From: Ascidiella aspersa
Lineage: Eukaryota
Direction of reading: 5' to 3'
Length of the DNA stretch: 64,000 nucleotides
NCBI GenBank assembly: GCA_963924565.1
Contig: OZ004608.1
Span: 9,734,001 to 9,798,000 of the forward strand
Positions 32,325-61,951 of this stretch are shown piece after piece. Position 1 is the stretch's first letter, and each line of letters starts with the position of its first letter. The translations under genes and the position numbers were made by a program. Under the pieces are notes generated by a model. That model worked only from the letters and a program-made list of their open reading frames with translations, ran no database searches and was not told the origin of the DNA.

Positions 32325-32399
32325 GATTCTACTGTACACTTGAAACACTTTTAGACTTGCAACAACGGTAAAGCAACAGAAGCGAATGATCAACTTTCG

Positions 32400-32730: not shown

Positions 32731-33309
32731 ATGGTGTGAGGCCTGGAATGAGGCAAAATATAATCGCCAAATGGCGTTTGTATTTTTGATTGATGTATTT
32801 ATTTCGATTAACAACGTTTTGTTGGTTAATTTGAAGTCTTTGTTTCAAATTGTTTCAGGATGTGATGAAAATGAACTGTTGTAAAACAACATTTTTCCCT
32901 GTTTAATATTATGCTAGATTAAACACGGGCAAAACATACAGGATAGCTCTGATCAATTGCTCCTATTATTGCATTTGATTGTGGAATTCTTTGGAATCCT
33001 GTAGAGTGTAGATGCACATATTAAAAAAAGTTTTTTATTGACACAATGTATAGCTTATTTGATAGGTGTGGCTTTGATGACCGTTTCAGTTTCACTAAAA
33101 CTCTAAAAACACTTATTTTTTTATTCCATTTTAACATTATCACACTTAAACACTGATATATTATTGAGTGTAGGGAATTTGGAAAATTACTAAACTGTTT
33201 TGTAAAAAACAAACATTGCGTAGTGAAATCATACGTTTGGTATGTTACATAAGAGTTCAGAATTCAGAACGTTAAAAAATAGCAGGGTAAAAAAATATCG
33301 GACCAATTT

Positions 33310-33610
33310 TAAACCGCATTTGTGATGCCACGCCGAGAACACGCGTGGCACACGAATCAAAATGTTGACATTATAAATTAAACGTGGCGGGAGACGTTCT
33401 TTGTTTGCACAGCAAGGTCAGCCAAGTTGAAGGCAGTGGTCAGATCCGCGACCAATTTCATTGTTTGCTTTGTGCAGAAGTCGCGCAGCGAAAGTAACTA
33501 TATACGCAATAAACCACGCGACCAAGTTAGGGGTGAACACGTTATCCACACCTTGGTCGTGGCAGACAATTTTGTATAAGCTTTCACGCACGTCAGATGA
33601 CAAGACGCGT
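33310..33610. promoter_or_regulatory. Conserved distal non-coding block, candidate enhancer (paralogs ~38255-38545 and ~42738-43030)
   Basis: High identity across the three units (ggtcagatccgcgaccaatttcattgtttgcttt; ggggtgaacacgttatccacac), while the sequence between it and the promoter has diverged. Confidence 0.55.
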
Positions 33611-34862: not shown

Positions 34863-36814
34863 TTAAAAGCCAATTGAAGAGCCGAAACCGCTTTCTGGGC
34901 TCTCAGGTCCACTGCTGCAAGCTTTTGGCGAAGCATTGATCGCCTCTAGGTAGCTCATTATCTCGTCAACTTTTGTTTGTTGGAATGGCGAATTACCGTT
35001 AAGGGACGAGTCGTCGGCCTCTACCGGAGATCCACCATTAAAATATTTTCCACAAGGTGGCGACGTTGCGACTAGGTATGTGACTGAAATTGAGTTCAAA
35101 TCGTCATCGCATGCTGCGGCTTCCACAACGGGAAAAGGATCAAATTTGGTGAGTTGGTCAACCTGAATAGAAGTCATCAGGTTAAATTTACTTTTGACTG
35201 AAACAGACTCAGAATCGCTGGAGTCGTCACAACATGATACGGGACTTTCATTTGGAATCAAGTTTTTGCCGAGTTCCATCAAATGAATCGAGTTAAGGTC
35301 GCTGCGATCGCTGCTAACATTGAGGTTGGCAGCCGAAAACGAGTCGTCGCTTCCCAACTCTGGTTTTGGCAGCAAGCGAAAGTCATAGGCGACTTTATTG
35401 TCTCGAAGCGGGATTACATCAGTGCTTCTACCGCCAATGTGTTGAACAGTCAATTTTGCAGGCTGCGATTCAAGCGGTTGGTCGCATACAGGGATATATT
35501 CTTGCTCGCGATGTGTGCTGGGAATGTAATGGTCTACAGGCGAATGGCCTTTGTCGAAATTTAGGTTACCAACGCAACGCTCGTTGGCAGCGTTTTCTTT
35601 GATGCAGGGGCGAGCGTGAAAATATGAAGCATCGTATGAGGGAGTTGGGAAACCTTGCTGGAATTTTATAGTATCTTCGCGGGAATAAGCAGCACCTTGG
35701 CCAAGTGTACTGTCGACTTGATTGACCACGTTAACGGCTCTAGGATCCATGGTGTAAGTGTATCCTGGCACATTGTGCGTTTCCAACGGCTGTACAGGAT
35801 CTGGTTGGCCCATTTCGGCGATGGCGGCGTCGGCGCCGACCGCTGCGGCGTCAATTGCGTCAATGGCGATGCTGTCTTCGCTCCGACACCAGAATCTGCT
35901 GCGTTCGCTGAAGTCTCGACTCCCGTCCAAGCAACCTCGAAGGAATTCGATGTAACGGATGGCGAGCTGGAAGTTGAAGAATAAATGCTTGTTTAAGGAT
36001 TTTCGGCAAGTACCTTATTGCGTTAGATTGACTGACTAACAACACGCACATTTTCCGTAAGATTAAATGACCCATGTGCGTTGTCTAATGCTTTATTGCG
36101 TTAAAAAAACAAGATCTTTAGAAACAGTATGATTACTTAACTATAGTCATGAAGGAAATACTTTTGTAATTGAGAATTGTATGATACATATTTTTTAATT
36201 TATATTTAATAATTAATTCCATATGTTCAATTCATTACTTAATTTTGCTCATTAAGCTATCTCTATAACATTGTGCTGATCTATGGTGAATCATATGTTC
36301 GCTATTTACCTGGAGAGTTTTCTTTTTGTGCATTTTTCTGTTGTCGGTGAGTCGGATTGGAAGTACACCTTGCAGGGATTCGAGGGCGCCGTTAAAATCC
36401 TTGAGTCTCTGACGTTCTTTACCAGCTGCTTCCTTGCGACGGCGTTTTGGCTTAGGTGCTTCCCCGCATGGTGACTGCCTTTTCTTCGAATTAAATTCAT
36501 TCAACTGATTTTGAAAACACCCGTTTAAATTAGGATATTTTAGACACCCCACCAAATAAATATATGATAAACAAGTAGGTAAGTTATTTAGTGAAAGGTT
36601 GGCAAGCAACTCGTATTTCAGGATTATTTGGAAAATATCCCACTTATTTACATTTACAGTATATATTAGTAAACAAAGTTGTAATCTATAGAAGACTAAT
36701 GTTAAATACTTATAAACGTACCTCGTCGTGGTTATACGTTCTATGGCTTTCACTGGCGATTTTGAGAAACTCTTCCAAGTTGTAACTTTCAGGAGCATAG
36801 TGCAGAGTCGTCAT
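34863..36814 (-). CDS. Divergent group-A bHLH transcription factor, triplicate copy B (~463 aa)
   Basis: Exons 36814-36722, 36504-36310 and 35966-34863, with an intact ORF. Exon 2 uses a downstream AG because the acceptor seen in copies A and C is mutated to AA. Confidence 0.82.
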
Positions 36815-37482
36815 GATTCTATTGCACACTTGAAACACTTTTAGACTTGCAACAACAGTAAAGCAACAGATGCGAATGATCAACTTTCGACACCCGTGTG
36901 CATTTAAAGGCAGCACTTTCCATTTTTTTTCGGCTGATGACTTGGGCAAACACGGCAACGGCGCCAGGCCCCTGCCCAGGCCGCCACGGACTCCGGCGCC
37001 GTCGCATGCAGCAAAACTAGAGAGGGCAAACGCTGCAAGCCGCTCGCTGGCCTTCCATTTCCGACTTTGGCGGCGACTTGAATCGCGTCGCCCGCTACTT
37101 GGCAAACTTCGATCGAAACACGGGAAGGCTTAGACGTGGCGTGTAGAGAGCCGGCGTCAGTCGGCCCATACCTGGATCGCGCTTTGGACGGGACGCAAGC
37201 GCTGTGGACAAACAGTCGCTTTCCGACTTAGCTTTTATTGTTTTACCGCTACAATGCCTGGATAGTGGCAAAAAATAACCGACAAATGACGTTTATACGG
37301 TTGGTTGATGAATTTATTTCGAATCAAACGTTTTTTGGTTATTTTGAGTCTTTGTTTTCCTTGTTTCAGAATTTGATAAAAACGAACGTTTGTAAAACAA
37401 AATTTCCTATATTTGAAACAAATTGCTGTCCCAAACATTTTTATTAAAGTTAGACCGGTGCAGTCTATCAGGTTTCTTAGTC

Positions 37483-38078
37483 CAGTGGTTCCCAACGCAT
37501 GGGTCGCGACTCAAAGTTGGGTCGCCTTAATATTTTTTTGGGTCGCTTGTTTTTAGGCATAACATTTCTTGAACGAAAAGATTACAATAAAAAGGTTTAA
37601 AACATGAAGAGATCTCAAAACTGGAAATTTAAATAGAAGTCACGAAGCGTTTTATGTCGAGACATCGGAAAGCTTTCTAGCATGTTCGTAGTGCAATAAC
37701 ATTTAACAGTTTTCCTTTTACTTATTGTTATTATAATATTATTATTATTATTGTTATTGCTGAGTGACCTATATTTAAATTAATTATTAGGCTTGCGAAA
37801 AATGGCAAAACGATCATACAATAAAGACGGTAGTTGAAGCCGACATGCGGCTATATCCCAAAAACTCATTGACAGCAAGCGAGCACAGCTATCTCATTAG
37901 TGATTTAATAAATATATTATTTTCGAAAAAAGTTACTGCTTTTGTAGTGCAGTTTGTTTGTAACGCAATCTTGTATAGCTTTAAAAATATTACGACAATT
38001 TGCTTGGGACGCAAGATTTTACCGCACTGAATTTTTCTTATAAAATGGGTCGCCTTAAAAACGTGTTGGGAACCACTG
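37483..38078. mobile_element. hAT-type MITE present only in triplicate unit B
   Basis: TIRs cagtggttcccaac ... gttgggaaccactg with internal tgggtcgc repeats. Absent from the corresponding positions of units A and C. Confidence 0.75.
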
Positions 38079-39901
38079 TTTTAGAGCAACGGCTTTGGTG
38101 AACGCGAATAATTTTTATAAGCAATAACTCAACTAAAACTTGACAAAAACGCAATGTATAGCACCAACATGTTTTACGTGCAAAACTTTAATAAACCGAT
38201 ATTTATGAAAACTTATTAAATGAAAGCACTTCATTTGAACCCAAGTGATTTGACACTATGCCGCATGTATGATGTCACGCCGGGAAGACGCGTGACACAC
38301 GAATCAAAATGTTGACATTGTAAATTAAACGTGACGGGAGACGTTCTTTGTTTGAACAGCAAGATCAGCCAAGTTAAAGGCAGTTGGTCAGATCCGCGAC
38401 CAATTTCATTGTTTGCTTTCTGCAAAAGTCGCGCAGCTAAAGTAATACGCAATGAAGCACGCGACCAGTTTGGGGTGAACACGTTATCCACACCTTGGTC
38501 GCGGCAGACAATCTTGTATAAGCTTTTACGCACGTCAAATAACAAGAAGCGTTTTTGGGAAACCAAGTAAGAAAAACTGTAGATAGGTTTGGATGTGTAT
38601 AAGTTTGAAAGTTTTGCAGCAGTTCGATAAGTGTAATGATAATTGAGTTGCGAGATAAAGTATCCAGTGCTTGGAAAATGTCTCTTGTTTGAGCCAAGCA
38701 TCTCGGTTAGTTGAAGCTTAAAATGTTTTTATCCCGCACATTTACCTAAACAACAACGTAAAGCTATATGTAAATTTTCGAACTGAAATCTAACCAGAAT
38801 CGTTGCACAAGGACAGCAACCTTTAACGCACCTCCTCTAAAAATTATACCGACGATGCATAGTCGCTCAACCGTTTTGCTAATCATGCTTTTTCTCATAA
38901 TTCTTTAGGTTTAAACAAAATTACATAAAACCTAACAAAGTACACCAAACTGCACATTGTAGAATGCTTTAACTTTAAAAAGATAGGTCTACACTTTTGT
39001 TATATTTTCTTGACCTCAACTGAAAATTATTCATATAAAAAGACTGCTTTATGTGTAATCTAACTGACAAACTTTGGTGAAATCAAATTATTGAGTTCAA
39101 AAAATCCTTAACTCTCAAACCCTAACTCATCTGTATAAAACTTTATTTTTTAGTTACATTAGTAGCTTATGGCTGCAGTTATGTGTCCATCGGTCCTACA
39201 TTTTTATGTGGTTACGAATTCATTTGTTATTTTTACGATGTTTAATTTATAGATCAAAGGAGATTTTCCTGAAGTTTCTAACCTCCTCTAAAACAAATTT
39301 TAAGTTGATAATTATGTTAACAACAAAACTTGCTTTTCCACCATATTAGTATTATTATACCCATAATTAAAAATATTTATAGCTGAGCATCTCTAGATTA
39401 AATACTAATTAATCAATGCATGCAATGAAAACTATTTATTTGAACTAAAGTCTGAATCACGTCAATGACGTTTGGCTTGCAGTAACACGTCAAGATTGAT
39501 TCAAGTATTTCCAATACGCAAGTTGAGTCAGTATAGTTCGAATAATAATTGACTTGTTTTTCCAGGCATTGTTTTAACTCTCCGAAGAAGTAACTACAAA
39601 CCAAATATTTCATAACCATTGTACCGCCTAAACCTTATATTTTACATTGGATTTTCTATAGCTGTGGTCAAAAATGTAATCCCGTCTTTTTTTCGTTGAA
39701 CGAATTTGCTATCCTTATCTTTTTTCAAATCACTCATATAAGTTATACTTAACTTTCATCAATATTTAGGACTATCATTTAGAAATATGTCAAATGTTAA
39801 TGTTTTCAATTGTATTAAACATAGAACAGTAAGAAAGAGCGAAAAAGAACAAATACATCAACGCCACTACAAAATGAAAACAAAACTTAACGCTTTAAAA
39901 A

Positions 39902-41875
39902 TTAAAACTCGGTCAAAGAGCCGAAACCGCTTTCTGGACTCTCAGGTCCACTGCTGCAGGCTTTTGGCGAAGCAATAATCGCCTCTAGGTAACTAAACAT
40001 CTCGTCAACTTTTGTTTGTCGGAATGGCGAATTACTGTTAAGGGACGAGTCGTCCGCCTCTAGCGTAGATCCACAAATAAAATTTAGGCCGCGAGGTGGC
40101 GACGTTGCGACGAGGTCTGTGACCGAAATTGAGTTCAAATCGTCGACGCAAACTGCGGCTTCCGCAACAGGAAAAGGATCAAATTCAATGAGTTGTTCAA
40201 CCTCAATTGAAGTAATTAGGTTGAACTTGCTGTTGGCTGAAACAGATCCAGAATCGCTGGAGTCGTCACAACATGATACGGGACTTTCATTTGGAATCAA
40301 GTTTTTACAGACTTCCATCAAAGGTATTGAGCTAAGGTCGCTGCAATCCTTGCTAACATTGAGGTTGGCAGCCGAAAACGAGCCGTCGCTTTCCAACTCT
40401 GGTTTTGGCAGCGAGCGAAAGTCATAGACGACTTTACTGTCTCGAAGCGGTATTACATCAGTGCTTCTACCGCCAAAGTGGTGGACGGTCAATTTTGCAG
40501 ACTGCGATTCAAGCGGTTGGTTGCATACAGGGAAATATTCTTGCTCGCGATGTGTGCTGGGAATGTAATGGTCTACAGGCGACTGGCCTTTGTCGAAATT
40601 TAGGTTACCATCGCAACGCTCGTTCTCAGCGCTTTCATTGATGCAGGGGCGAGCGTGAAAATATGTAGCATCGTATAAGGGCTTTGGGAAACTTTGCTGG
40701 AACTTCATAGTATCTTCGCGGGAATAAGCAGCACGTTGGCCAAGTGTACTGAAACAGTCGACTGGATTACCCATGTTAACGGCTCTAGGATCCATGGGGT
40801 AAGTGTATCCTGACACATTGTACGTATCCAACGGCTGTACAGGATCTGGTTGGCCTTTGTCATCGATGGCGGCGTCGGCACCGACCGCTGCGGCGTCAAT
40901 TGCGTCAATAGCGATGTTGTCTTCGCTCCGACACCAGAATCTGCTGCGTTCGCTGAAGTCTCGACTCCCGTCCAAGCAACCTCGAAGAAATTCGATGTAA
41001 CGGATGGCGAGCTGGAAGTTGAAGAATAAATGCTTGTTTAGGGATTTTCGGCACGTACCTCATTGCGTTAGATTGACTGACTAACAAAACGCACCTTTTT
41101 GCGTAAGATTAAAGGATCAGATGTGTTTGTCTAATGCTTTGTAGCGCAATGATTTAAAAAGCAATGTATACTTAGAAACAGGATGACCACTTAACTATAG
41201 TCAGGAAGGAAATATCTTTCTATTAGAGAATAGTAGAATACATATTTAATTTACTATAACTCTGTTTATTTTCTACTTATTAATTAAATCTACCGTGTTC
41301 ACTCCTTCGCATAATTTTGTCCAATAAACTGTCTACAACATTTTTGATTGGAATCATGTGTTCGCTATTTACCTGGAGAGTTTTCTTTTTGTGGATTTTT
41401 CTGTTGTCGGTAAGTCGGATTGGAAGTACACCTTGCAGGGATTCGAGGGCGCCATTAAAATCCCTGAGTCTCTGACGTTCTTTACCAGCTGCTTCCTTGC
41501 GACGGCGTTTTGGTTTAGGTGCTTCCCCGCATGGTGACTGCCTTTTCTTCGAGTTAAATTCATTAAGATGATTCTGAAAAAATCAGTTTTTATTAGAATG
41601 TTTTAGACATACCACCAGATAGATATATGATAAACAAGTAGGTAAGTTATTCAGTGAAAGATTGGCAAGCAACTTGTTTTTCAGGATTCTTTGGAAAATA
41701 TCCCACTTATTTACATTTACAGTATATTAGTAAAAAAGTTGTAATTATTAAAAAATTGTACATGCGAGTAATATAAACCTACCTCTTCGTGGTTATACGC
41801 TGTATGGCTTGTACTTGCGCTTTGAGGAAACCTTACATAGCCGTAACTTCCAGGAGCATAATGCAGAGTCGTCAT
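39902..41875 (-). CDS. Divergent group-A bHLH transcription factor, triplicate copy C (~467 aa)
   Basis: Exons 41875-41783, 41573-41373 and 41011-39902. All phase 0, canonical splice sites, intact ORF. Confidence 0.88.
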
Positions 41876-44282: not shown

Positions 44283-47200
44283 ATGGGCAGTGCACCGAGC
44301 AAAGTGCCCAGATCTCGCAGTGGCCTTTCCTTTGTCTCCACTTCGTCCGTTTCTTCGCTCACAACGTGCGCCTCCGATAATGAAGATGAACCTTCAGGTG
44401 GGGGACAATAAATCAGTTGCAAAACTTGTGGTGGGCACATCTAACTAAATTTTACAAAAAATATTTAATAAATTAAAGTCAAGTCATATGTCCGAAAACC
44501 CGAAGTGAAGTCAAGGTTTATATAACAGTGAGTTGAGTACACATATAAGTCAAGTTATTGACTTAAGTTAAAAACACACTACAAATAACCATCTTCTCCA
44601 CTTACAAGCATATTCAACTCTAATGTTTTTCCTGAATTAACACGAAATCGTTTCATGCCTATAGGCCACGAAAGCGCCGAAAACTTCATATTCGATGACG
44701 TCACCACGAAATCGTTCTGCGTGAAGTGGTCGCCACCGAAGCGTGTCGACATTGCGTCATATCAAGTCAGGATATTTCCACCAGACAAAATAAAGTCGCG
44801 CACCTTGGTGAGTTTTGAATAGTTTATTTCCCATTAATTAGCGGTTTAACATGTAGCCTACCCAGTCTGTAACATTCAACTAGAAGTGCAATAGTCACTT
44901 ATGGCCAGTGTTGTAAAACGACAAAACAGTGACTATGGCATCGAATATTTGTAACGAAGTTTAAACGTCAGCTGCGGGGGCGAGGTCAAATTTACCGAAA
45001 AAATCCAAGCAACCCATTCTTACTTTTGATTGCTAGCACAGTGGTATCAACCTTTTTTCTTTCGTGGCCCATTTTCGTCGCACAAAAATCTGTTGCTCAA
45101 TAATTTTTTATAAAAAAAAATATAAAAAGGGTTTAGAGCAAAAAACAGCAGAACATATTTTAAAACAGATTATTTATTCAACCGTTTACAGTACAGTTGC
45201 ACTGCGCTGAGCTGGGCGTTAAATTGTTTTCACTACGGCTGGACTGAGCTGCGCTGGGCGCAAAAATCGCTCCAAAACGTAACGTTTTTCTATAGCTGTA
45301 CTGGGCTTGAGTTTAGCAAAGCGTTAAAATTGCTCTAAAGCGTATTTTTCCAGCTGCACAGGGCTTGAGCTGAGCAAAGCGTAAAACGCTCGTCACAATA
45401 GAATTTAAATGCAAATTACGCTTTGCTCAGCTCAGTGCAGCTCTAGTGTAAACGGGCCTTTAGTGAGATACTTGCTGCTGAACAATAAATTTACATTTCA
45501 TTTACATTCCTTCTTAATTCGTCTCCAAAAATTAGGTATAGTGACACAAATGAAACCTAAAAATTTATAAATCTATTTTTTTCAAATAGGTCTGTGGCCC
45601 TACTTAAAATGTTTGGTGGACCATGGTCCACTGGTTGAAAACCCCTGTGCTAGAAGATAGGGATATATGTTACCGGGTCGGATCGACTCCCGTCCATTTG
45701 AGAACATATTTTTGACCAAAGAAAAATTTTTATTTGCAGTTGCGAGCGTTGCCAGCACCCGAGTACACATTCTGTCGTCTGCATTCGGGAACCTCATACA
45801 GCGTCGCCGTCATCGCCACCAAATTAAACGGGGAAAGGGTGCCTTGCTCGACGGCACACGTTGCAACACGTAAGACATGAAACCGACGTTGGCAAAATCT
45901 GGAAAAGCCTTTTTATTTTACTTGGTTGAAATTAATTTCATCGAATGAACTGTATAAGCTTTGCGCCCCACTTCACTTTTTAAATGATCGCCTCGGTTTA
46001 GAAAATTTTAGTACTGCTTGCATTGTAAAGGCAGCCATACTCGCAGCATTCCCGGGTAAAATAAATTTTATTAATAAAAAGTGTTAAAAAATACAAATGC
46101 AAAATTAACTTGTACAATGTAGATTCAGTAAAAACTCGTACTAGGTTACTGCAGTGCACTTATAATATAAAACTCTTTTATCAAAGTAAACTTTAGGACT
46201 TAGCGCAATTAGTGTCAAACAAATATATTCGTCCGTTAACCTTTAAGTTCGACATTTTAACATAGCAAAAATTAATCCATTTTTTCTCGCTGTTTCGGTA
46301 GTTCCCCGCCCTCCACGCAACATTGAGTTTCCCTCGCAAGCGACCAGCAGCGCTGTGGAAGTAACTTGGCGCCATTCCAAGGGCAAGCGAGACTGCTACG
46401 AGGCTAGCATCGAACCCACCGAAGGCGTGACGTCACCTTGCAACGTCACGAACCTGACGTCACCAGGTCACGTGTTCAGCGGGCTGGTGCCGGGCGTCAG
46501 GTACACGGTTTCGGTTTTCGCGGTGGCGAACAGAGTGAGGAGCGAAGCCTTGGTTGGCGAGTTTACAACAGGTAAGTGCCTTTTCTTTGTTTCTTTTTGG
46601 TTTATCGGCTGTTTATTAATTCGAAAGTCAGGGAAAAAAATATTTTTCTCCCTGGACACAACTTTTAGGTTGGTGCCTTTACTTTCGTTCGTTTTTACTT
46701 TTTCTGTTTTCAAATTTTGGGATTATGACAAAAACAACTTTCTCCCTGAAAACAGTTGGAAAATGTTTGGTGATTTCGTTTTTTTTTTTGTGGTGGAAAT
46801 GTAAACCGATGAAAATTTGACTCTCTTACAACTGTCGTTTTTATGAATTAGACATTTTTAACCTAGCCTATACAGAAAGTTTGTAAATTAAGTTTCGTGA
46901 AATGACAAAGCAAAGTTTTCTTTCGTAAAACACAGTTACGTGATATGAATATTACAAACAAATGCCAACAGGCAAGTCATGCATTTTTCAGGTGGTTAAA
47001 CTTTAATTCCTAAAAGTCCGATAATGTTTTTCATCATATCTATGATGCATAAAACACTATATTAGTGTAAATATTTTTATTTCGTTTTTTTTTATCTGTT
47101 TTCAGGCCCGCGTCACGTTTGTGACCTCATATTTGCTGACGTTTTAAAAAAATACCGACAATAACGCAATTTATTTTAGGGGCCATTATTGGTACTTTAT

Positions 47201-50200
47201 ATCGGCACAATAAACTATGCTACCCTTAAAAAAGTTATGCGACGTACGGATATCATAGAAAACACAAGCTTGTTAGTCGTTATATTTATTTCATGACGTT
47301 GGATTTTAAATTTTTATCTTCAGCATGCCAAATGGTCGTATCGCATTTGATATTATCAATGGCAAAAACGTAATTTGAAGGTTTTGGATGTAACAAAACA
47401 TCCCATTCAGTGAAACAAAATAAGTTTTATTTCGTTTTTTATCTGTTTAAAGGCCCGCGTCACGTTTGTGACCTCATATTTGCTGAAGTCACCCAACACG
47501 AGTTAACGGTCCAATGGAAGGCTCCAGAAGGAAAAGTGGAGGGTTATAACTTGAAACTCACGCAAACCGATCACAAATCAAGTAAACTGAAATGATGCTT
47601 AACATAAAAAAAGTTATTGTAAAAATGAAAATGAAAATGATAATTATGAGGTTGCTCGACCGTACAAAAAATATTTTCAATGTTATGGTTATCTGGCTAT
47701 TTGCGTAACAATATTGTAAAAATTAAAATTAAAATGATAATAAAGAGGTTAAACGACCGTATAAAAAATATTATCAACGATATGGTTAAAAAAAAAAAAA
47801 AAAAAAATCTTGTCATCATTGGTTTCTGTAATATACTTTTTTTGGTAGTGGATCGCGGTGATGCTTAAAAGTGATATTATTGTTTGGCATATTTACGTTA
47901 CACCTATTCAATTTTACGTTGCCTTTTTTGATAGTCATTCTATGTTATTATTTGCCCAAATACTATTTTCATAACAAACTCAGACCAATTTATTTTTAAT
48001 TTGTCTTGAATGTAACATGTTTCATACATTTCACGTAGACGAACCTGTTCAGATCAATAAACTGACCAATCTCAGCTACACCTTCAACGGGTTGGTGCCC
48101 GGTCGTTTGTACGACTGCACCGTCACCAGTGTGACCCTCGACACACAAAGCAAACCTCGGACTTACACGTGTTGTACAAGTAAGTGGACCTATATGTTTA
48201 CTACTAAAAATAATTCCTGTTTGTGCATTCGCGTATAGCTTGTCAGTCTGCTGTCTAAAGGTTACATTTGTACAGTCTGCGAAATTATATTAATTTAAGG
48301 GTAAACCCAGGCATATATGTGCTGCACAAGAGCGTATAGATCTTTATAAACTTCCACGGGTGGATCTAAACTTTAACTTCTAAAAATAAAGCACATTAGG
48401 TACGTTGACGCAGCCCTGAATTATGTCGCATTTTATTTACAGGACTCGATTTACAAGAAAAATAAAAAATGCTCAAGATCTAGTTTTGCCGTAATTAAAA
48501 AAAAAAGTCCATGATAATCGAAGAAACTGTTGACGCAGTGAATTTAGAAAACAACAACTTACTAATAAAAATTTTCTGTACAATCTAGTCCCATCTCAGG
48601 CCAGTGACGTCACAGCTCGCGAAATCGGGCCCGAGGAAGCCCTGGTCACGTGGTCACCCGCTACCGGTGACGTCGACGACTATGACCTCTTCTTGACCCC
48701 AAAGGAGGGAGCGTCATGTAATACAAATCCTAGCGGCGTCAAGGGCACGAAATATCACTTTAAAGGTAAGACCAAATAACCGTTTTTCAAATTATTATTT
48801 GAAGTAGCTTACATTCTACAAACTAGATGAATCATGTGACACAACCGTGATGTGCGAAAGCTTGTCGAGAATTCAATACAATTATCTTTATATAGTGCCA
48901 CCTGATTTCTCTTTTTATAATTAGACAAATACGGCCATTTACAAAGATTCTACAACCTGTTTAACTTTTGATTTGTCATCATATAGGCCTGGTGCCCGGA
49001 ACAACGTACAAACTCGGGATTGTCTCAAATTCAAAGGATAAAAGCAGCAAGAGGGTTGTCGCGACCTTTATAACTGGCAAGTTGTGATATAAAACTAAGG
49101 ATAAGCTATGCTGTTTAACGAAGAATTACCCTGCTCAACAAAAAAAAAGTATTTTGAGGTCTCAACAAACTTAAATTATGTAATCTTCTTGTAATTAATT
49201 GAGCAAACAATTATGGAGTATTTGAGTCAAAGGCACCCTGTCTTGTTTGGCCTAATAAGTGCAAAGTTAGGGCGGGGAGGAAATAGAAAAAGACCACTAC
49301 AATGCTTTAAATGAGCTTTTCGATTTAGATAAAAATTCAGTCAAGATTTGATTAGAGGTTTAACTATTCATCAAAACATTTTCAACAGAACCCGGTTTGT
49401 CAGGCGATTTGGATTTCGTGAAAGAAGGAAGTTCAAGGCAAAAACAAATGGTGAAATGGCGCCCTTCAAAGGGAAGAGCAGACTCGTACATTGTTTACGC
49501 CAGGTAACAGTATTTATAACGTAGAATTTGTTCTAGAAGTCAGTATACTAGAATAAACTCTTATATATTTTACCTTTTAATTAAGTCCAAAGAGTGAAAC
49601 CTTATGTCATACACCACCGTGAATCCTTTGGACAAAGCGCCAGACACGGCAAATAAACTAGCATATTGTAAATCCAAGCCCATGACCTCGACCGTTTCAG
49701 AGCTGCCGTAATGCTTTTTGTGGTGTCACCGAGTGTTATTTAAATTGAAACTTTACAAATGTGTATATACTTCATCGCAAAGTAAGGTATAAATTTCGTA
49801 TACCAATCTAATTTGTCAAAATTTATTCAGCACCCCCAATTTACTTTCCCTGTTTGTTTTTTTGCAGAAGATCGGATAAAAAGGAACCTGGATGGAAACT
49901 GGATGACGTATACTCTCCCGAGTGTTGGTTGAACGATCTCACGCCGGGTACGTCATACCAGGTCGACGTGACGTCATTGAGCGACGGAATGGAATCTTCG
50001 GCCCTGAGTGGTACCTTCGCAACTGGTGGGTAGCACATGCAACCATGCATTATGTCTTTAATATCTCTCGTTTCGCCTCCAAGATTAGAATGTAATTTGG
50101 GGGGACATTTAGGACAAATGTAATTTATATGTATATTGTTAGCAGTAGTTCTTTTTAGGCATTTACTTGCAAGAAGGTATCTAAAAAATCAAAAATATTA

Positions 50201-53200
50201 TCTTTCTGTTAAAAAAGCTTGTTCTATAGAATGTTGTTATAGAACTAAATGTACTTTTGGAAATGATTTGCTTTTGGAAAATAAGGAGGTACCATACGTC
50301 AAATATCGACATGCCCGCATCAATGAAACAGATCTGGTTTGAAATTTATGTTTATAGTTTATCTGAAAGTGTTTTGACTGTTTGTTTTAGAGCCCAACCC
50401 TGTATCAACCTTAAGCTTCCCACACGAGGGATGCGCTTGGGACAAAGTGCAGTGCGCCTGGGATAAGGCGGAAGGAGGTGTAGAGAGTTACAAGCTTACA
50501 GTCAAGCTTGATGGTAAGCCTGTTTGTTGTTCACAATGGGCGTATGTATATGTTTGTATATAACATACTTTCTATAGCAGGAGTTCTCAAACTTCTTCAT
50601 AGGTGACCCCTAAAAAATATTTTTGTTTTGCGTGGACCAAGGTTGGCGTGAGACGTCATAAATTGACGTCATTGAACAAGTAGAACTAACAAACCTGCTG
50701 TTTTAGTTATAGAAATATGAAACTGAAATAAAGTCTAAATACACTTTAGCGTTTTTTTCTGTGTAACTTTATTTGTATGAAAAATTATCTAACTTTTTAA
50801 ATAATGCAGTAGGTCTTTAACTGGGCCTTGATGAACCCCTTTAAACTAGTCCCCTTTAAACCCCACTTTGAGAACTCATGATCCATAGGCATTTGTGCGT
50901 CTTAACCGAGTGTGTTTTCTTAGTCATAAAACTCATACATTTAACGAACACCTATTTTAGGCGCAGTTGCTTTGGAAAAGCACGTCGACTCGGATTTATT
51001 GAATTACACGTTCACCGGATTAAAACCATCGACGATCTACGAGTTCGTTGTGGAAGTTTACAGCAATTCGTTGCTGAGCACTTCTGTCACGGGAAAGCAC
51101 AAAACTGGTGAGTAAAAAGCTTTACAAAAATGTCGCGACATATTTCAAACAATATCAAGGCTGATGGTAGCCCTTGAAACGAAAACTAAACCGAAAGTGA
51201 TATATATGTTCATATAGTTACTACACCAATTGTATATTTGTGTGTTGCGTTCCCGTCTATACCAGTTCTCGTTTGTTAATTTTTGCAGGAATATGTAGAA
51301 TGCTAGGTCAAAACCCTTAGACTTAAAGATGTAGAAGATTTTTATTTCCAAGCATACTATACTTTGCTCTATAATCAAAATGTAATAGATTACAAAACGG
51401 CAAAGGCACGACATTTTCTAAATTTATAGTGCACACTGTGTTCCTTGTGTGTTCGCTCCTTACCATAACCTCTTCCCGTTCGCGCGTTTTTTGACAAACG
51501 AAAAAACACACCTAAAGTCAGACATTAAAACCATTCACCGAACCGATTGCAAAGGTCCCTGCGCGATCTCGAACCTTCGATTGGAGCAGAAAGGCAAGAG
51601 GGAGCTCGCAGCTGAGTGGGTAGCTTCGGACGGTGGAGCGGACGACTACATGCTCACCATAGATTCACTGGGCGACGCGGAGCCTAAACTTTCGACCACG
51701 TGTGAGGAAACCAGCACTAAACACAGCTTCAGGGATCTAACACCGGGCACGCAGTACAGGGTAGGGGTCACTCCAAGGTCGAGGAAGATATGCGGGCCGA
51801 CAGCCGACGCCGAGGCGTACACCAGTAAGTGCTGTTTTTCGAATAGTGCTGGACATTACCCAGGCCAATCTTTCATTTCTCGCTGTTTGAACAATTAAAC
51901 TAATTTGAGCCTAATCCGTTATATGTATGCGAGTATGCCATTCATCAATAGTAAAAGAAGGCAAAAGGCTTACAACTAAAATTTAGCTATTAATAGGGTT
52001 TACCCAGAGATGTTCATTGGGGTATTACGTAGTCAGTTTCGTATAGGCTTTTTAGCTATACGCTGAATTAACACTTTTATATACAGATTGTGTTCTTTTT
52101 TAGGATTATCAAGTGAAAATACTACATCGGCTAAATGTAATAAACACTAGTAATGGCTTAACAATATATAAACAGGTCACTTATTCAACAATAATCCATC
52201 CAAACTAGTCGTGCGGATTTTGTTTTAACGGATCTTATTCCTCGCAGAGCCTGGTGACGTCACGAACGTCCACATCCCGCAAGCTTCCGTCAGCAAGGAC
52301 ACGATCGTACTCAACTGGTCCGGAGTGGAGGGTAACTGCAGGTCGATGGACATCACGCTCACTCGCATCCAGAAGATCGATGAGGATCAGCTCTCGGCGG
52401 CCGCCGTTATCATCAAGGAGGAGTACATCGAAAGATGCGAGAGCGGACTTAATGAGCGAATATACGATGGTTTAGACGAAGCCACCATCTACGGATTCCG
52501 ACTCAGGTCTAATGGGGAGGCCGGGGTGGGAGATGATGTTGTTGTAACCCAAGCGACTCTCTCAACCAAGCCAGAACCGCCTCCCGTTGAAGATGCGAAG
52601 CCTCCATCTCCGATTACATTACCCAAGGAAAAAACGCCTTCCCCTGAACCTGAGCTCTTAGTTAACGAAAGTCCGGAGCCAGTTGTTAAGCTACCTGAAT
52701 TTCACGATAAGCCTCCATCACCAATCCTACAACCCAAGGCAAAAACGCCATCGCCAGAACCCGAAACTCAAGCTCGTGATAGCCCGGAGCCAGTTATTCA
52801 ACCACCTGAAGTCCGTGAGAAAACGCCATCTCCCATTCCAGAACCAAAGGCAAAGACGCCATCACCAGAGCCTGAAATTCAAGCTCGCGAAAGCCCAGAG
52901 CCAGTTATGAATCCACCTAAAGTCGACGAGAAACCTCCTTCTCCAATTCCAGAGGAAAAAATACCAACACCCGAGCCTGAACCCCCAGCTCGCATAAGCC
53001 CAGAGCCAGATACTCATCTCCCAGAAGCCAATGATAAACCTCCAACTCCCATTCCATTGCACGAAGAAAAACCACCATCTCCAGTTCCCGAACCCACGAA
53101 AAGTCCTTCTCCTACCCTAGAGCCCGAAAGAAAAACTCCATCTCCAGTCGTCCCAGTAAAACCACCATCACCATTTGAACAACCACGAGAGAAAACTCCG

Positions 53201-53698
53201 TCTCCACAGGAAATCAGACCGGTTTTGGTCTTAAACGGGGGTAACCTAGAATCTCATGAAGGGGAAACTACGAAAGTATCCGAAGCCCCTTCGAGTCCTC
53301 AGCCTAGTACCAGGCCAAGCTCCAGTCCGAAGCTAATAGATTCATCAAACGTCAATCCAAGCCCCAATCTAAGCCCTAAACCTAGTCCCAAACTAAGATC
53401 TAGTCCCAGTCCTAAGCCTATTGAAATCTTGACATCTCAACCCAGTCCGAAGCCAAGTCCCAAATCAAGTCCTAAAAGTCCCACATTAAGTCCCAATGCA
53501 AGTCCCAAATTAGGTTCAAAGCCCAGTCCTAAATTGAGCCCCAAACCCAGCCCAAAACCTAGTCCGAGACCTAGTCCCAAACCTAGCCCTAGACTGGGTA
53601 ACCAGCACTCAGTGACATTCGCGGACTCAACAAAGAAGGATTCTGGCGAGTCGGGTAAAAGCTCAATGCCTCTTCTTGCTGAGCTTACGTCGACATAG
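44283..53698 (+). CDS. Protein with 8 fibronectin type III repeats, N-terminal MGxxxS motif and Pro-rich repetitive tail (~1152 aa)
   Basis: Frame-consistent exons 44283-44397, 44665-44807, 45740-45869, 46302-46571, 47453-47581, 48039-48179, 48589-48765, 48987-49076, 49389-49503, 49868-50025, 50391-50513, 50961-51107, 51555-51824, 52248-53698. FN3 motifs (P..L......V.W...G..Y...L.PG..Y.V.V) recur with phase-1 domain boundaries. Confidence 0.85.
45039..45647. mobile_element. hAT-type MITE with a nested palindromic element (~45185-45455)
   Basis: Outer termini cagtggtatcaacc...ggttgaaaacccctg with TSD tgctagca/tgctagaa. Inner inverted arms tttacagtacagttgcactgcgctgagc...gctcagtgcagctctagtgtaaa. 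Confidence 0.72.
50577..50877. mobile_element. hAT-type MITE
   Basis: caggagttctcaaa ... tttgagaactc termini. Body similar to 4770-5108. Confidence 0.6.
52598..53590 (+). repeat. Coding tandem repeats: ~4 x 111-bp (37-aa) units, then (SPKP)n-like repeats
   Basis: KPPSPI..KTPSPEPE..ESPEPV units start at 52598, 52709, ~52820 and ~52931. SPKP/SPKL/SPRP repeats run ~53360-53590. Confidence 0.85.
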
Positions 53699-55313: not shown

Positions 55314-58300
55314 CTACTCATTACAAGTGCGCTCCAATTCCAGGCCTTCGCATGTAGCGCACCTGACCTTGCAGCACCAGTCGAAGGCACAGCGACAGGG
55401 GCTGGTCCTCTGCACCAGCTTGGTACCGTAGCCACGACCGCAGCACAAACGCTGACAGGCGTCTTCGGACACATCTGCGCACCGCCGGCCCCGGGTTCCA
55501 AGGATTCCGAGGCGCGTGCTCCGGTGACATAGGTTAGGAGGCTTCCGGGCGTAGGCCAGCTTACGCTTGCTGATCTTGCGCGGGCGCCGCGACCCTAAAG
55601 TGTGCAGGAATTCTTATGTGGGTCTGAGTGCGAATTTCAGAGAGTTTTCGTGCGTTGCAACAGTTATGTGATATATTAGGTTTAAATAGGATGAGCTATC
55701 GAAGCACGGAAAGTTTGTCTGTTAGTCACCTTACTACCCGCCCTTCCATTAGAACAAATCAGTGTTGTAAACGAATCATTTTGAAATGACTTAAGCTAAG
55801 TCAAGTCATTTTGTTCGAAGGACTTAAGTCAAGTCAAGTCATTTAAAAACAATGACTTGAGGGTACTAAGTCAAGTAAATGATTTAAGTCATTACAACAC
55901 TGGCACAAATGTGTCTAACAACTAAGGTTCATAAATTTTACCATGACTAAAGTCTTTAACCAATCATGAAACGTGTCAAACTATTAGAATACTTTCGAGT
56001 TTTACTGTACATGATAAATAAACTAGACCTTACTCGACTATTAAAAGTAAGGGTACTGCATGCATAGGTTTTTACTCGCAAAAATGTAAGCGCCAGTTTG
56101 GAAAGTCAACTAGAAAAACAATGCTGTTGGTCAATAAAAGAAAAAGATATGAATTGCTATTCTAGCCGTTTACCTTGTACGAGTATTGTAAAAAACAACC
56201 TGGGTTTTGGTCAAAGCAGCACGCACACCTGTGATGGTCACTAATAATATGGTGGTTATGTAGCCTCATCTGACCGCTATCCTTGAGCTTATTTTTATGA
56301 ATATTGTCTGGCTTGCACTTGTCGAGTTTATACTTACCAGAGAATAAATGCTGAGACGACTTCCGCTTTTTCTGTTGTTGCTTCGAGACGCGCTTGGCGG
56401 CGAAGTAAGCATTCTTGATCTGCTTGACCACCACCCTGAGGTCGGCCTGCCTCCGCCAACACGTCCTGGTTGCACAGGACGCCGTTAAACCGTGGCACTT
56501 GCAGAGAAGCACCACTGATTTCTCGTAAATCTGCAACGCAAGCCGGTTCACATCAAGAATAACAACAGTGAAACACTTTTGGCCAAATGAATTCATTAAC
56601 TTGAGAAATGATCAAAAAAATCCAAAACTTTATTTTAGTTTAGGGCTAATATAGCAAAAAAAGTCAAGAATGTTTCACCAACCGTTTAGTTTTTACTTGA
56701 ATCATCATCAGTTAAACGAAAAAAACACAATAAGATCTATAAATCGACCATATCTATAAGGAGGAATTATTTATAATATAGTAGCATTAAGACCATCGAC
56801 ATAAGAAAACCAGATACGCAGTAATATCTACAACGAAATATTATGGAAAATCGTCTGAGTAAGACCTAAACCTGTCGTGATAAATCCCTTAAAACGAGCC
56901 CTGTTTTACCGAACTGTTTGCCCTCGTTTAGGTTTAGGGATGGGAAATCGCCACGGTAAGACGACAATTTGAGATAGATTGAACTAAACCGATTTCGATT
57001 TTATACCAAATATTAGGTATTAGTTCTATTTTGGTCTTTATTCCGACGATCAGTGGCGTAGCCAGCCGAAAAAAGAGGGCCGAAGTTTGAACTTTTTTGT
57101 TTAACTTTTACCATTGTATTAACTGCCGTAACGAACACAAATAACAATGCTAGCAAACCGTTTCGAGCGAGCAGCAACTGGCTAAGTGTTAACGCAATTA
57201 TTAAAAAAACATTCAAAGAGCAAAAGCTGACTAGTAAAACTACATTCACAGGATTTTAAAAATAGTTTGCTTCGCAAGAAGTTAAAAAAATACGTGGATA
57301 GAACTTAGATTTGCGTTATCGCATCGATTCGGTAAAAGAAAGTTATAAAATCGTGTTTAAAGATTTCAGATCAAGATTGTCGCGAATAATATTTTACAAT
57401 CGATATCCCGAACGAGCCATCCTATGAGCACGTCATAATCGTAATGACGCCAACTAGAAAAGCGCCACTTTTATTGGGCCGTTGCTTTGAAGTTTGGGCA
57501 GGGGTAGACGGGTACGTAAATTGGGGCAATTACCAGACGGGCCAGATATGCCTGTGAACGAGCTTGTGACAAATCAGAGAGCTAAGGAATGGTAAACGAA
57601 TGTTCTGGAAAATTCATTGCCTCGTTTAAGCACTACGGTCATACAAGCCTTTATATTTTAAAATCAGCAAATTTGCTAAACGCAATCGATTTTAAGGTGA
57701 GCCTGTATAGACATCATATTACACAAATGAATAGTAACCGATAGCACGTTCTAGATTTGCCTTACAGTGTTTTGCAGTGGCGGTACAAAAAACTTTTTTA
57801 ATGATTATTTTTTTGGAACAAGTGTTGCACTTTACTTTACACCACAAAAACGCCATTACTATTTTACGATTAGACGTAGTAACTTTTCAAAGTTATGTGA
57901 AATGTTCAAAATGATATCTAATTGTGTATGAGCTTCGATATTCTTACTGTACGTCTTATTACAACTTTTAACTATTCTGCTTCAAAATTTCACGTTTAAA
58001 ACTTTCGAAACCAGAAGAACATCAGCAGGAATTTGGTATCGAGCTTAGTTGGCGTGCGACAGCAGCACAAAAACCTCAACAAGAATACAGACAAACACTC
58101 GACCGGTCGTTTTCCTTTTCCGTCGTTTAAAGAGCGATCGAATCACTCAAGGGCAATTTCGAGCTGATGAACGTTACGTCGCCCGCCCAATAAACACCGT
58201 CGCGGGATTTTTTAACGCGCGCAATTTTCGGCCAATTGCGCAAAAAGCGACAATTTCGAGCAGTCGCACTCCGAGCAATAAACGTCGGCGACGGCAACCC

Positions 58301-61300
58301 AAACAAAAACCCTGTTGTCGGCGAGACTGTTGCCAAAAGCGAATCGGCTATTTGTCCCGGGCAATTTTGATTTGTAAACGCAAAAGTGTTACAATTCTGA
58401 CGATCCGAATTGTGTAGTTTATACATATTTACTCATAAATGCCTGCGAACCAAGCGTTTTGATAGCAATAAAAACGCAATTTATAAAAGGGGATTTCGAA
58501 ACGAAACATTTACGCGCAATTTCTCACATTATACTATCTGAAATTGTTATTATAACAAGTATGACTCAACCTATTACCTAAACCTTAACAGCAAAGTTGA
58601 AGTTCAGCATTCCAACAGACCACAAACTATGATTGCAGTTAGGTCATATTCAATAAAAAGAATGCGTCTCCTTTTAAAAAATAAGGCTCCAATATTGTAT
58701 TTGAACAAACTACTATTTACCAACCTTCAAGCCAACGTCCGCATTGTGCAAATTGATGCGATCAGACAAGGAGAGCTTCCTTACATTCCTAGTGGCGATC
58801 CCCTTTTCGAGATGCTCCTTGCTGAAACGGACGGCAAACTCGTCGACGTGACTTAAGTTTCCCCACAACCAATCCTAAAGCAAAACTTTGTTTCTACCTC
58901 TAACAGACCGGGTGGTAATCTGTTTTAATTATGGACGTAATGTTAATTACTTGGTACACATCATTTCACATTTAAAAAAGTGAAAGCTAAAATCAAACTC
59001 CTCTTGGTTACGACAAATTCAGCTTCAAGGCAGTGGGTTCTAACATAGGTCTCTTTTTATATTTAGAAGTGGCGCATTCTATTAATTTATATTTAGGAAT
59101 GGCGCATTCTATTTATAATTTCTTGGGGTGTGGTAAGCGAACCACTGCGTCCTGAAATGTTTCTTCAATTATCTTAGTTTAATCAAGTAGAAAAGAATTG
59201 CTTATTTTATACACTGAACCTGTCTATATACGTGAACCAACACCATTCGAAAACGTTATGGGTCCTAATTTGTGTCAGAGCGTACTAAAACCAAGACCGA
59301 ACCCGAGTCTGACGTGCGCATGCACAGTATGACATTTAAAAACTATTAAGGCGGCAAAATGTAAGTTGTAAAAGTGTAATAGCAAATGGTGAAATATTTT
59401 TAAACCATGTAATGCGGGTGGATCAATTATGACACCAATATAAGTGGAATGCAGAAAATCCACCTTAACTTAGTTGCGTAAATGGGTAAAATACAGGCTG
59501 CAGATTCAGAGCTGGACTCGGCACTCGACAAAATCTTACATTTGTCCGGAGTCGGACTCTGGACTCGGGAGTCGGACTCGGGTGTATTTTTTTGGCCGGA
59601 GTCGGACTCGGGAGTCGGACTCGGGAGTTGGACTCGGGTTGTTTTCAACCGGCTCTGCAGCCCTGGTTTTAAGCCAAAATGAACATTTTTATTTGTATAA
59701 ACACCTGCAACCGTGCCATGGTGACTATCACGCGCTTTCTAATTGACTTTGAAATGTGCGGCAGCTTTAGCTTATCCATGGGCGTTCTCCTTATGGCTGC
59801 TGTCAGGCTGGAGTTGCTGGTCATTCGTGTCTCTTCTTGCAGACAGGCCACCATGTGTCGTTTCATGCAGGAATCGCCGACGGCGTGGGCTATGGCTGCC
59901 CTTGTAACCGCGTAGTAAAACGCCGATTCCTTGGTGTCTGCGGCAAACACGATTATAGACTTATTTTTTATTTCTTCGGCCAGCATATATAGCTTTAGAT
60001 GCATGGTGTTTTATATACAACAACCCACTTATAGAGGTGTGCAATTCCATAAAGAAAGAAACGCTAGCATAACGTTGTATTGTAGATATTTGTAAAGTAT
60101 TCTGTAGCGGTTTATATCACCAGTTTAAGACGTAGGCTAATCTAAAAAAATAGACCAAAAGGTGGTCCATTGTAACATATTTTTAAGAACCAATAATTAC
60201 GAATAAAATTCGGTTACACCTTTAAGTCCGATCGGAAGAACGCGATCGTCATATCGGCCAACAATTCTGCTGGTGTCATTTTTCTCTGGTAATGCTCGAA
60301 AGTCCCGAACCAGACTGCAGTTCCACCTGAATAATTTTTTTTAGTATAGACAGTCATTTTTAGCATTCAGCTTTCAATTGACTATAGTACTGAACGCACA
60401 TTTCGTGGTAGAACACTTCCTCGCAAAGCTTGATTGCTCTTTCGTAATGCTGTACCACGGCACGAGCAGCTACTGGGTCCATGGAACAAATTCCCCGCTG
60501 TAATGCTGTCATTTCTGTATAAAATAGCAGTTCTGTAATACGTATAGATCTTTGCGAATAATGGTGAACATAAAAAGAGCCTACTGGCTTAACATAGTTT
60601 AGGGTCAAGACATTTTGAAATAATATAATCACAGAACAAAAACTTTCAATAATGAACAATTTTCCTATTAGCAAACGAAATCGCACGAATTGAAAATAAT
60701 CTTTAATGTGGAAATTTAAAGCGTATCGGTTAACAAAACAGGTTAATTTTCTACAAGTATAGCATGAATTAAGAGACAACAGTCTAAACAAATATGAAAT
60801 TCATTTTAGCAATGTATACAAAACCATGGTACTTGTGTCATCGGTGAGCGTTTAACCTTTAATTTTTTTTAATAAATTGTCAATTGTTAGTCCAGCGGCA
60901 TTTCATAACTATCTAAGCTTCGGTAAAACACCTTAGTACAGTGATTCCCAACCTTTTTTTGGCGCGACCCTTATTCGGGTGTGGCAAAAATCTTTTTCGA
61001 TGGTCGAATAGTCACCGTTTAATTTATATTAGACAAGGCCATTAGTGTAAACTATATGCTTTGGTCGCTGACTGAAAACAATACTTATTGTCATAAACAC
61101 GACTGGTTTACTTGCAAGTCCCATCAACACAATTGTTAGATTGGCGGATGTTCTTGCCCCCTTCTACTGCTAAGATTTTACATATTGTTTGTTGTTTCTT
61201 GTCTTTTTTTCGTTTCCTGTCAAACTTTCGATCAACAAATCGTACATGGCAAACCCCCCTGACAACCTATTGCGATTCTCTTGGTGATCGTGACGCCCAG

Positions 61301-61951
61301 GTTAGGAACCATTGCCCCTAGTAGTTTCAGCTATAGACGAAATAAGATTCGCGGCTACTGTCGGGACAAATTTAGATTTCACCTTGGTCGCTGAGACACC
61401 AATCAGGAAGTTGAACTGCGATGAGCGAGGTTGGGGTGGAGGGGGGAAGGTAATCGTTGACCGAGAAGTGGGAATGCTGAAGCGGATGCTGGGAGATCAT
61501 AAACCGGGGTTTTCTAGAAAAAAAAGGTTTCCAAGTATATAATATATAATAACAACCAGTTAGTCTATATATATTTTAGCAATCAAAGCAGTATTTTTAA
61601 TTCTTTTCAGTTTCAATTTTTAGCATCGAGTGACGACATTTCTAATTGATTTTTCTACCTCTCTTTTTGAGTTCAATAATTGCACAATGAAGGACTCTAC
61701 TAAATAATATTATTAAAAACGACTTTATAAATCTAATAAATTTGAGTTTTAAATTTACTAACCAGCTATGAAAAAAACATTTTTTTAGAAAATCAATTTT
61801 GTAAACCATCTTCCAATAAAACTGCTTCATTTACTCACACAAGCGCAGAATCAGTTTCCACCCTGAGCGCCCAGTGGCTGTCAATCAAAAGAATAAATAC
61901 CAGCAACACATTTCGACAGAAATCGATAGTTCCTCGGCAGGCAGCAAGCAT
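55314..61951 (-). CDS. Wnt: Divergent (orphan) Wnt ligand, ~440 aa, 8 exons
   Basis: Exons 61951-61839 (signal peptide MLAAC..VLLVFILLI), 61513-61383, 60514-60400, 60326-60220, 59937-59705, 58874-58725, 56530-56338 and 55594-55314, all frame-consistent. Motifs: WNCS, DTKESAFYYA, NLHN..G, CKCHGLTASCATRTCW, GTRGRRC, CCGRGY, CRCAFDWCCKVRC. Subfamily not assignable by eye. Confidence 0.93.
55760..55901. mobile_element. Small MITE with internal (AAGTC)n/GACTT repeats
   Basis: TIR cagtgttgtaa ... ttacaacactg with an internal gacttaagtcaagtcaagtc array. Related relics at ~2890-2955 and ~44470-44570. Confidence 0.65.
59510..59665. repeat. (GGAGTCGGACTC)n array with MITE-like end
   Basis: Repeated ggagtcggactc units, ending in gctctgcagccctg. 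Confidence 0.65.
60939..61314. mobile_element. hAT-type MITE in Wnt intron 2
   Basis: cagtgattcccaacc ... ggttaggaaccattg termini. Flanks ccttagta/ccctagta. Confidence 0.6.

What the first reader, a model, noticed from the sequence alone, without database searches (positions are those of the whole stretch)
56455..56505. Wnt with Thr in place of the palmitoleoylated Ser (CKCHGLTASC)
Seen: the thumb hairpin reads CKCHGLTASCATRTCW. Known: the consensus is CKCHG[LV]SGSC, in which the first Ser (Wnt3a S209) is acylated by Porcupine and is needed for Wntless transport and Frizzled CRD binding; Drosophila WntD is the classic non-lipidated exception. Inference: this ligand is either Thr-acylated or lipid-free and Porcupine-independent. 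The adjacent Gly>Ala change also alters the hairpin.
Basis: partly seen in the sequence, partly recalled or inferred. Interest (0 to 1): 0.72.

Follow-up and report, generated by a model that had tools for sequence, protein, structure and literature searches.

The report
Sea-squirt Wnt with threonine lipid site
A sea-squirt-type Wnt signalling gene has threonine where Wnts normally carry the serine that receives a fatty acid; the same swap recurs in other animals' Wnts, and this protein is likely still fat-modified on the threonine rather than fat-free.

Summary
The motif is real: minus strand 56503-56456, Thr codon ACG at 56485-83, unchanged in raw DNA reads and in contigs of two further runs. 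It lies in an intact 8-exon, 440-aa Wnt model (splicing inferred; no RNA reads). The gene sits on a very long branch and its subfamily is unresolved. Thr at this site is not unique. It occurs in 3 of 10 Wnt loci of this genome, in Clavelina and Styela Wnt2, in 5 of 93 readable thumbs from a public set and in 6 of 101 metagenome thumbs. In the 93-thumb set the site held only Ser or Thr, while neighbouring positions vary freely. The other residues that a 2026 study shows Wnt3a needs for Wntless export are kept, except Gly210 (Ala here). Porcupine and Wntless genes are present. Best reading: Porcupine acylates the Thr (70%); lipid-free about 15%. That Porcupine accepts Thr is recalled from a 2014 paper I could not open. 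A separate oddity: both cysteines of the hairpin-1 pair are gone. Ten paper searches found no report of natural Thr-site Wnts. The scan earlier noted a lamprey Wnt5 without the serine, a different case.

The parts
61839..61951 (-). Exon 1 (inferred): ATG and hydrophobic signal-peptide-like stretch
   Evidence: GT donor; peak 9-residue hydropathy 3.9 at residues 15-23; no RNA support
61383..61513 (-). Exon 2 (inferred): carries the first conserved Cys; chosen because its phase links exons 1 and 3 and gives the C-x5-hydrophobic-x3-Q-x3-C spacing
   Evidence: least certain exon, other acceptors possible
60400..60514 (-). Exon 3: first helix and Cys equal to Wnt3a C77
60220..60326 (-). Exon 4: WNC motif
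59705..59937 (-). Exon 5: KESAF helix, C128 and C136 equivalents; Gln (59839-59837) in place of C138; basic insertion of about 34 residues if the donor at 59705 is used
   Evidence: Pfam wnt E 5e-5
58725..58874 (-). Exon 6: hairpin-1 WxWG with both Trp kept; Leu (58856-58854) in place of C155; NLHN helix
56338..56530 (-). Exon 7: thumb hairpin (hairpin 2)
56456..56503 (-). CKCHGLTASCATRTCW motif with all four hairpin Cys, K204, H206, G207, S211, T216 and W218 equivalents
56483..56485 (-). Thr codon ACG at the acylation site (T299 of the model; Wnt3a S209)
56480..56482 (-). Ala codon GCG at +1 (Wnt3a G210)
55314..55594 (-). Exon 8: C-terminal domain with the hairpin-3 WCC (55379-55371) and stop

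Best explanation
This is an intact, fast-evolving tunicate Wnt gene with Thr at the tip of its thumb hairpin, and Porcupine likely attaches palmitoleate to that Thr, so the ligand would still leave the cell through Wntless like other Wnts. Shown: the Thr, the open reading frame under the proposed splicing, the four hairpin cysteines, the kept export residues, and Porcupine and Wntless genes in the genome. Predicted: the hairpin fold with Thr in the tip loop. Inferred: acylation of the Thr hydroxyl, possibly less efficient than on Ser (by analogy with GOAT), then Wntless transport and Frizzled binding. The +1 Ala probably affects the fit in Wntless more than acylation.
For: (1) Hydroxyl kept. 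Of 150 representatives, 93 had a readable, standard-spaced thumb: 88 Ser, 5 Thr, no other residue. Position +1 held 6 other residue types, and the non-acylated Ser at +2 went to Ala, Gly or Thr in 8 cases, only 1 of them Thr (Fisher p 0.005, or 0.03 after counting one deletion case and merging the two ascidian Wnt2 rows). (2) Old, stable Thr lineages. Wnt2 of Clavelina (PTQS), Styela (KTGS) and this genome (PTGS) group at SH-aLRT 98 in one quick tree. Five metagenome thumbs read VTGS at 69-75% mutual identity. 3 of 10 Wnt loci here carry Thr. (3) Residues whose loss blocks or cuts Wnt3a export in PMC13434646 section 7 (W150, W152, K204, H206, G207, T216, W218, W333) are all kept. G207T abolished lipidation there, and G207 is kept here. 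(4) AlphaFold2 on the exon: strands 6-13 and 21-28 with Thr16 in the loop between, mean pLDDT 86. (5) Porcupine: a 573-codon open frame, E 1.5e-74 to 7URA, His of the LHG motif aligned. Wntless is present. (6) The related enzyme GOAT acylates Thr at a reduced level, and bullfrog ghrelin is naturally Thr-acylated (PMC8316800 passages). (7) Recalled, not read: Rios-Esteves 2014 (PMID 24798332) reports that Ser or Thr, but not Cys, can be acylated in Wnt3a. (8) 4 of 4 listed variants in the thumb exon are synonymous.
Against: No acylation, secretion or expression data; RNA run X7 showed no exon reads. Wnt3a G210T stayed acylated but lost surface transport and secretion, so a side chain at +1 can block export; Ala is untested. 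This gene has the longest branch of the ten paralogues and has lost the C138/C155 pair, so constraint may be relaxed. Of 6 exon variants checked outside the thumb exon, 3 change the protein. In a further 149 proteins (mostly vertebrate Wnt3/3a and Wnt6) there were 0 Thr, 1 Ile and 4 unreadable. No close orthologue was found (best 51% on the last exon), so conservation of this gene's own Thr across species is unknown. The Wnt2 grouping was not recovered in a second tree.
Confidence: 0.7

Rival explanations
1. Lipid-free, Porcupine- and Wntless-independent Wnt, like Drosophila WntD, with a remodelled thumb.
For: Two changes at the tip (S>T, G>A), loss of both hairpin-1 cysteines, a basic insertion and the longest branch among the paralogues. 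WntD lacks the Ser and is unmodified (PMC2427328 passages). Wnt5a S244A still binds ROR2 (10.1101/2021.04.29.442059 passages).
Against: The replacement keeps a hydroxyl. All three Wntless-binding hairpin motifs are kept. Thr recurs in conventional Wnt2 orthologues.
Confidence: 0.15
2. The gene is under relaxed selection or barely expressed; the protein is poorly acylated or poorly exported and the Thr-Ala is drift.
For: Extreme branch length. No RNA reads in one run. 3 of 6 checked variants outside the thumb exon are non-synonymous. G210T blocks export in Wnt3a.
Against: The 1323-base model has no internal stop and GT-AG introns throughout; exon GC is 0.54 and third-position GC 0.63 against 0.40 for the locus. 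22 of 24 Cys are kept, and the two lost form one pair. Thumb and last-exon variants were synonymous in 6 of 6 checked.
Confidence: 0.1
3. The lipid has moved to the neighbouring Ser (Wnt3a S211 equivalent).
For: That Ser is present.
Against: Wnt3a keeps S211 yet loses all lipid when S209 is mutated (as summarised in PMC2427328). The +2 Ser is the freer position in the survey.
Confidence: 0.04
4. Assembly error: the true codon is Ser.
For: ACG is one base from TCG.
Against: Raw reads of X6 and contigs of X1 and X2 agree with the window at this codon.
Confidence: 0.01

Closest known systems
Ser-palmitoleoylated Wnts (human WNT3/WNT3A; PDB 6AHY, 7DRT; hairpin peptide with PORCN 7URD/7URE)
   Same: Same thumb spacing, four hairpin Cys, H206, G207, S211, T216, W218, the two hairpin-1 Trp and WCC.
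   Different: Thr for S209, Ala for G210, no C138/C155 pair, WxWGN for WxWGG, hairpin 1 about 34 residues longer in the model.
Ascidian Wnt2 (Clavelina lepadiformis XP_076820358.1, Styela clava XP_039265163.2, own locus L041)
   Same: Thr at the acylation site.
   Different: A different paralogue; these keep the hairpin-1 cysteines. Their acylation is also untested as far as my searches show.
Drosophila WntD (PMC2427328)
   Same: Lacks the conserved Ser.
   Different: WntD is shown to be lipid-free. This protein keeps a hydroxyl at the site and the Wntless-contact residues. I did not align WntD itself.
Thr3-octanoylated amphibian ghrelin and GOAT (PMC8316800)
   Same: Natural Ser>Thr swap at an MBOAT O-acylation site that stays acylated.
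   Different: Different enzyme, lipid and substrate; an analogy only.

Membership tests
Wnt ligand family | Pfam PF00110 domain | tested here: met
   3 of 4 exons scanned hit, two at E <= 2e-12; the hairpin-1 exon alone did not hit
Wnt ligand family | Conserved 22-24 Cys pattern | tested here: met
   22 Cys after residue 40; C138 and C155 equivalents absent
Wnt ligand family | N-terminal signal peptide | tested here: inconclusive
   hydrophobic stretch in inferred exon 1; no signal-peptide predictor, no RNA
Wnt ligand family | Secreted and signals through Frizzled or co-receptors | not testable with these tools
   needs cells
Canonical Ser-acylated Wnt | Ser at the S209 position | tested here: not met
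   Thr
Porcupine substrate | Hydroxyl residue at the tip of a Cys-stapled hairpin with H206/G207 | tested here: met
Porcupine substrate | O-palmitoleate on that residue | not testable with these tools
   needs mass spectrometry or click labelling
Wntless cargo | Hairpin-1 Trp pair, hairpin-2 K/H/G/T/W, hairpin-3 Trp | tested here: met
   8 of 9 Wnt3a positions mutated in PMC13434646 section 7 are identical; G210 is Ala
WntD-like lipid-free Wnt | No acylatable residue at the site | tested here: not met
   Thr has a hydroxyl; whether it is used is untested
WntD-like lipid-free Wnt | Secretion without Porcupine and Wntless | not testable with these tools
   needs cells
A named Wnt subfamily (1, 11, 16 or A) | Supported clade with reference members | tested here: inconclusive
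   AU test rejected none of 10 placements; Wnt1 best (weight 0.51), Wnt7 0.22; Wnt8, 9 and 10 not in that test. Several reference labels are recalled, not from a call

The most novel reading that the evidence does not exclude
A naturally lipid-free or lipid-poor chordate Wnt: the Thr-Ala tip, the lost hairpin-1 disulfide and the basic insertion together mark a ligand that has left the Porcupine-Wntless route, a chordate counterpart of WntD. A milder and likelier novelty is that ascidians run several Wnts (3 of 10 here) on Thr acylation as a tuning device, perhaps matched by the Asp353>Glu change in their Wntless.
Probability: 0.15. Interest if true: 0.75.

Novelty: new variant of a known kind. 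Interest (0 to 1): 0.38.

Why it matters
Reviews state that Wnts are acylated on a conserved serine, with WntD the exception (PMC10112924, PMC13434646 passages). Natural Thr-site Wnts make the rule 'hydroxyl' rather than 'serine'. They mean a missing Ser should not be read as 'lipid-free'. They also offer natural substrates, in an animal group used for embryology, for testing whether acylation efficiency tunes Wnt output or range. If this ligand proved lipid-free it would be a rare chordate case.

Tried and rejected
Orthologue hunts failed: thumb exon, 0 hits among 10 candidates; last exon, 1 hit among 18; representatives search, best 51% identity; mixed profile, 120 listed, mostly vertebrate Wnt3/3a and none named as a tunicate. 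The ESM Atlas gave no result. No RNA holder was listed; the one RNA run laid gave no exon reads. Subfamily: two mixed quick trees, a 33-row tree with clade tests, profile and BLAST scoring, a careful tree and a 10-way AU test all left it open. My early guess of Wnt11 is not supported over the others, and profile scores favour paralogue L050 as Wnt11. Folding Porcupine without an alignment gave pLDDT 42 and was discarded. No complex prediction was run: an enzyme-substrate pair would not separate Thr from Ser. Papers: 10 searches found no report of natural Thr-site Wnts or of S209T. The three key biochemical papers (Rios-Esteves 2014, Lee 2019, Liu 2022) are not in the library and Takada 2006 was not looked up, so absence from print is weakly tested. 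The supplements of PMC6060547 (ascidian Wnt table and alignments) could not be read and would probably name the orthologue. Rejected: assembly error; uniqueness of the Thr.

Full report
Observation. The minus strand encodes CKCHGLTASCATRTCW at 56503-56456. It aligns without gaps to human WNT3 and WNT3A, putting Thr on S209 and Ala on G210. Raw DNA reads of run X6 (depth 4 at the codons) and contigs of X1 and X2 show no change at either codon, and the 4 listed differences in the exon are synonymous. X1 may be the source sample. The one RNA run laid (X7, about 6% read) gave no reads on the exons, so expression and splicing are unverified.

The gene. Eight exons from 61951 to 55314 join with GT-AG introns into 1323 bases and 440 residues with no internal stop. 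The model has a hydrophobic N-terminus, 22 Cys after residue 40, and exon GC 0.54 against 0.40 for the locus. Exons 1-2 and the donor at 59705 rest on phase and motif fit only. Against Wnt3a the protein lacks both C138 and C155, which pair in hairpin 1 (pairing recalled), and that loop is about 34 residues longer in the model. It keeps W150, W152, K204, H206, G207, S211, T216, W218 and W333. AlphaFold2 on the thumb exon with 33 relatives gives two strands with Thr in the connecting loop, mean pLDDT 86.

The organism and subfamily. The genome search found 35 Wnt exon matches at 10 loci, a lower bound. One paralogue groups at 98-99 with a Ciona savignyi protein, and another with Clavelina and Styela Wnt2 in one of two trees, so this is a tunicate, probably an ascidian. 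PMC6060547 (section 5 and passages read) describes long ascidian Wnt branches and lineage-specific losses. Our gene has the longest branch of the ten. An AU test rejected none of 10 subfamily placements, Wnt1 scoring best at weight 0.51. No close orthologue was found.

How unusual is Thr? In this genome the site is Ser in 7 of 10 loci and Thr in 3: this gene, L041 (PTGS) and L050 (MTGS); L004 has Ser-Ala. Among 150 representatives picked by likeness to the last exon, 93 had a readable standard thumb: 88 Ser and 5 Thr. The other 57 were dropped as fragments or non-standard; one of them, a Glandiceps protein, has a one-residue deletion there. Two of the five are Clavelina and Styela Wnt2; one unnamed protein has Thr-Ala (P0133). 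Its pattern allowed only S/T/C/R/W at the site. Five of the six TG form one group at 69-75% identity; I take them for cnidarian Wnt8 from recall only. A third set of 149 proteins, mostly vertebrate Wnt3/3a and Wnt6, had no Thr, 1 Ile (not traced) and 4 unreadable. Thr is therefore a recurrent minority state, and richer in this genome than in the representatives (3/10 against 5/93, Fisher p 0.03; the sets are biased and not independent).

Mechanism. In the 93-thumb set every departure from Ser at the site was Thr. The nearby non-acylated Ser went to Thr in only 1 of 8 departures, and +1 took A, Q, H, N, K and R (p 0.005-0.03). This pattern is expected if the hydroxyl is still used. In PMC13434646 (section 7 and passages), W150A, W152A, H206A, G207T, G210T and W333A blocked Wnt3a export, K204A, T216A and W218A reduced it, and only G207T lost the lipid. 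This gene keeps 8 of those 9 residues. The ninth is the +1 Ala, so the Gly>Ala change bears on Wntless fit more than on acylation; it is the main mechanistic doubt. The genome holds a full-length single-exon Porcupine (E 1.5e-74, His of the LHG motif aligned) and Wntless, with D301, E356, R357 and Q360 kept and D353 as Glu. The sister enzyme GOAT acylates Thr at a reduced level, and bullfrog ghrelin is naturally Thr-acylated (PMC8316800 passages). I recall that Rios-Esteves 2014 showed Ser or Thr, but not Cys, can be acylated in Wnt3a; reference lists confirm the paper exists but I could not read it. I put Thr acylation with Porcupine and Wntless dependence at 0.70, lipid-free at 0.15, relaxed or poorly exported at 0.10, acylation on the next Ser at 0.04 and error at 0.01.

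Comparison and novelty. It is a Wnt, not a Ser-site Wnt, and not shown to be WntD-like: WntD lacks the Ser and is unmodified (PMC2427328 passages), whereas this protein keeps a hydroxyl and the export motifs. Ten searches found no paper on natural Thr-site Wnts, but the main biochemical papers are outside the library. Other papers seen: PMC10112924, PMC12612157, PMC8189181, PMC11066868 and 10.1101/2021.04.29.442059 (passages); PMC8220140 (term search, no hits for lipid terms). An earlier scan note (e1-9950488) describes a lamprey Wnt5 that lost the Ser and other finger motifs; I did not check it, and it is the contrasting case.

Verdict. A real, modest variant: interest 0.38. What is worth keeping is the pattern (recurrent natural Thr sites, three in one ascidian genome) and the lost hairpin-1 cysteine pair in this gene, not a claim of Porcupine independence.

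Noticed in passing
L031 and L032 (G000:C3, 23.334-23.343 Mb): Wntless appears twice in tandem, about 6 kb apart and 98.7% identical over 1.37 kb; a recent duplication or an assembly artefact. Both copies have Glu at human D353, a residue that coordinates the acylated serine oxygen in PMC13434646.
   Followed up: partly
L041/L012, P0026, P0028, L133: Ascidian Wnt2 has Thr at the acylation site in Clavelina, Styela and this genome; an unnamed metagenome contig (L133) that groups with L041 has it too.
   Followed up: partly
L050/L017 (G000:C7, 10.70 Mb): A third Thr-site Wnt (MTGS), scoring best as Wnt11 by profile, with a long Arg-rich insertion before the NLHN helix.
   Followed up: partly
L068, L070, L116, L132, L138: A group of metagenome Wnt thumbs with conserved VTGS, Wnt8-like by recall.
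   Followed up: partly
P0004 (Glandiceps talaboti XP_077998206.1): A hemichordate protein with two tandem Wnt domains, both reading CRCHGFKGC: the Ser is absent and the loop one residue short, a stronger candidate for a lipid-free Wnt than this one.
   Followed up: no
window 21800-41600: Five bHLH exons (22994-, 27563+, 31925-, 36417-, 41480-), Mesp-like by recall; three are near-identical tandem units about 4.5-5 kb apart, with open frames of about 380 codons nearby.
   Followed up: partly
window 46247-53695 (+): A fibronectin type III repeat gene with a long Pro-rich repetitive exon, convergent with the Wnt gene.
   Followed up: no
window 6792-7163 (+): Exon matching FAM194 (PF14977, E 2e-16).
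   Followed up: no
L054:721-2439: Porcupine is encoded in a single 573-codon open frame.
   Followed up: partly
L004/L042 (G000:C9, 18.05 Mb): The Wnt6-like paralogue has Ser-Ala at the tip, Tyr in place of the hairpin-3 Trp, and lacks three late C-terminal Cys.
   Followed up: no
window 55760-55860, 57020-57170, 59300-59620: High-copy repeats inside the Wnt introns; they account for nearly all RNA reads laid on the locus.
   Followed up: no
L031:2517-3275: Retroelement-like open frames (by recall) directly behind the first Wntless copy; observed only.
   Followed up: no
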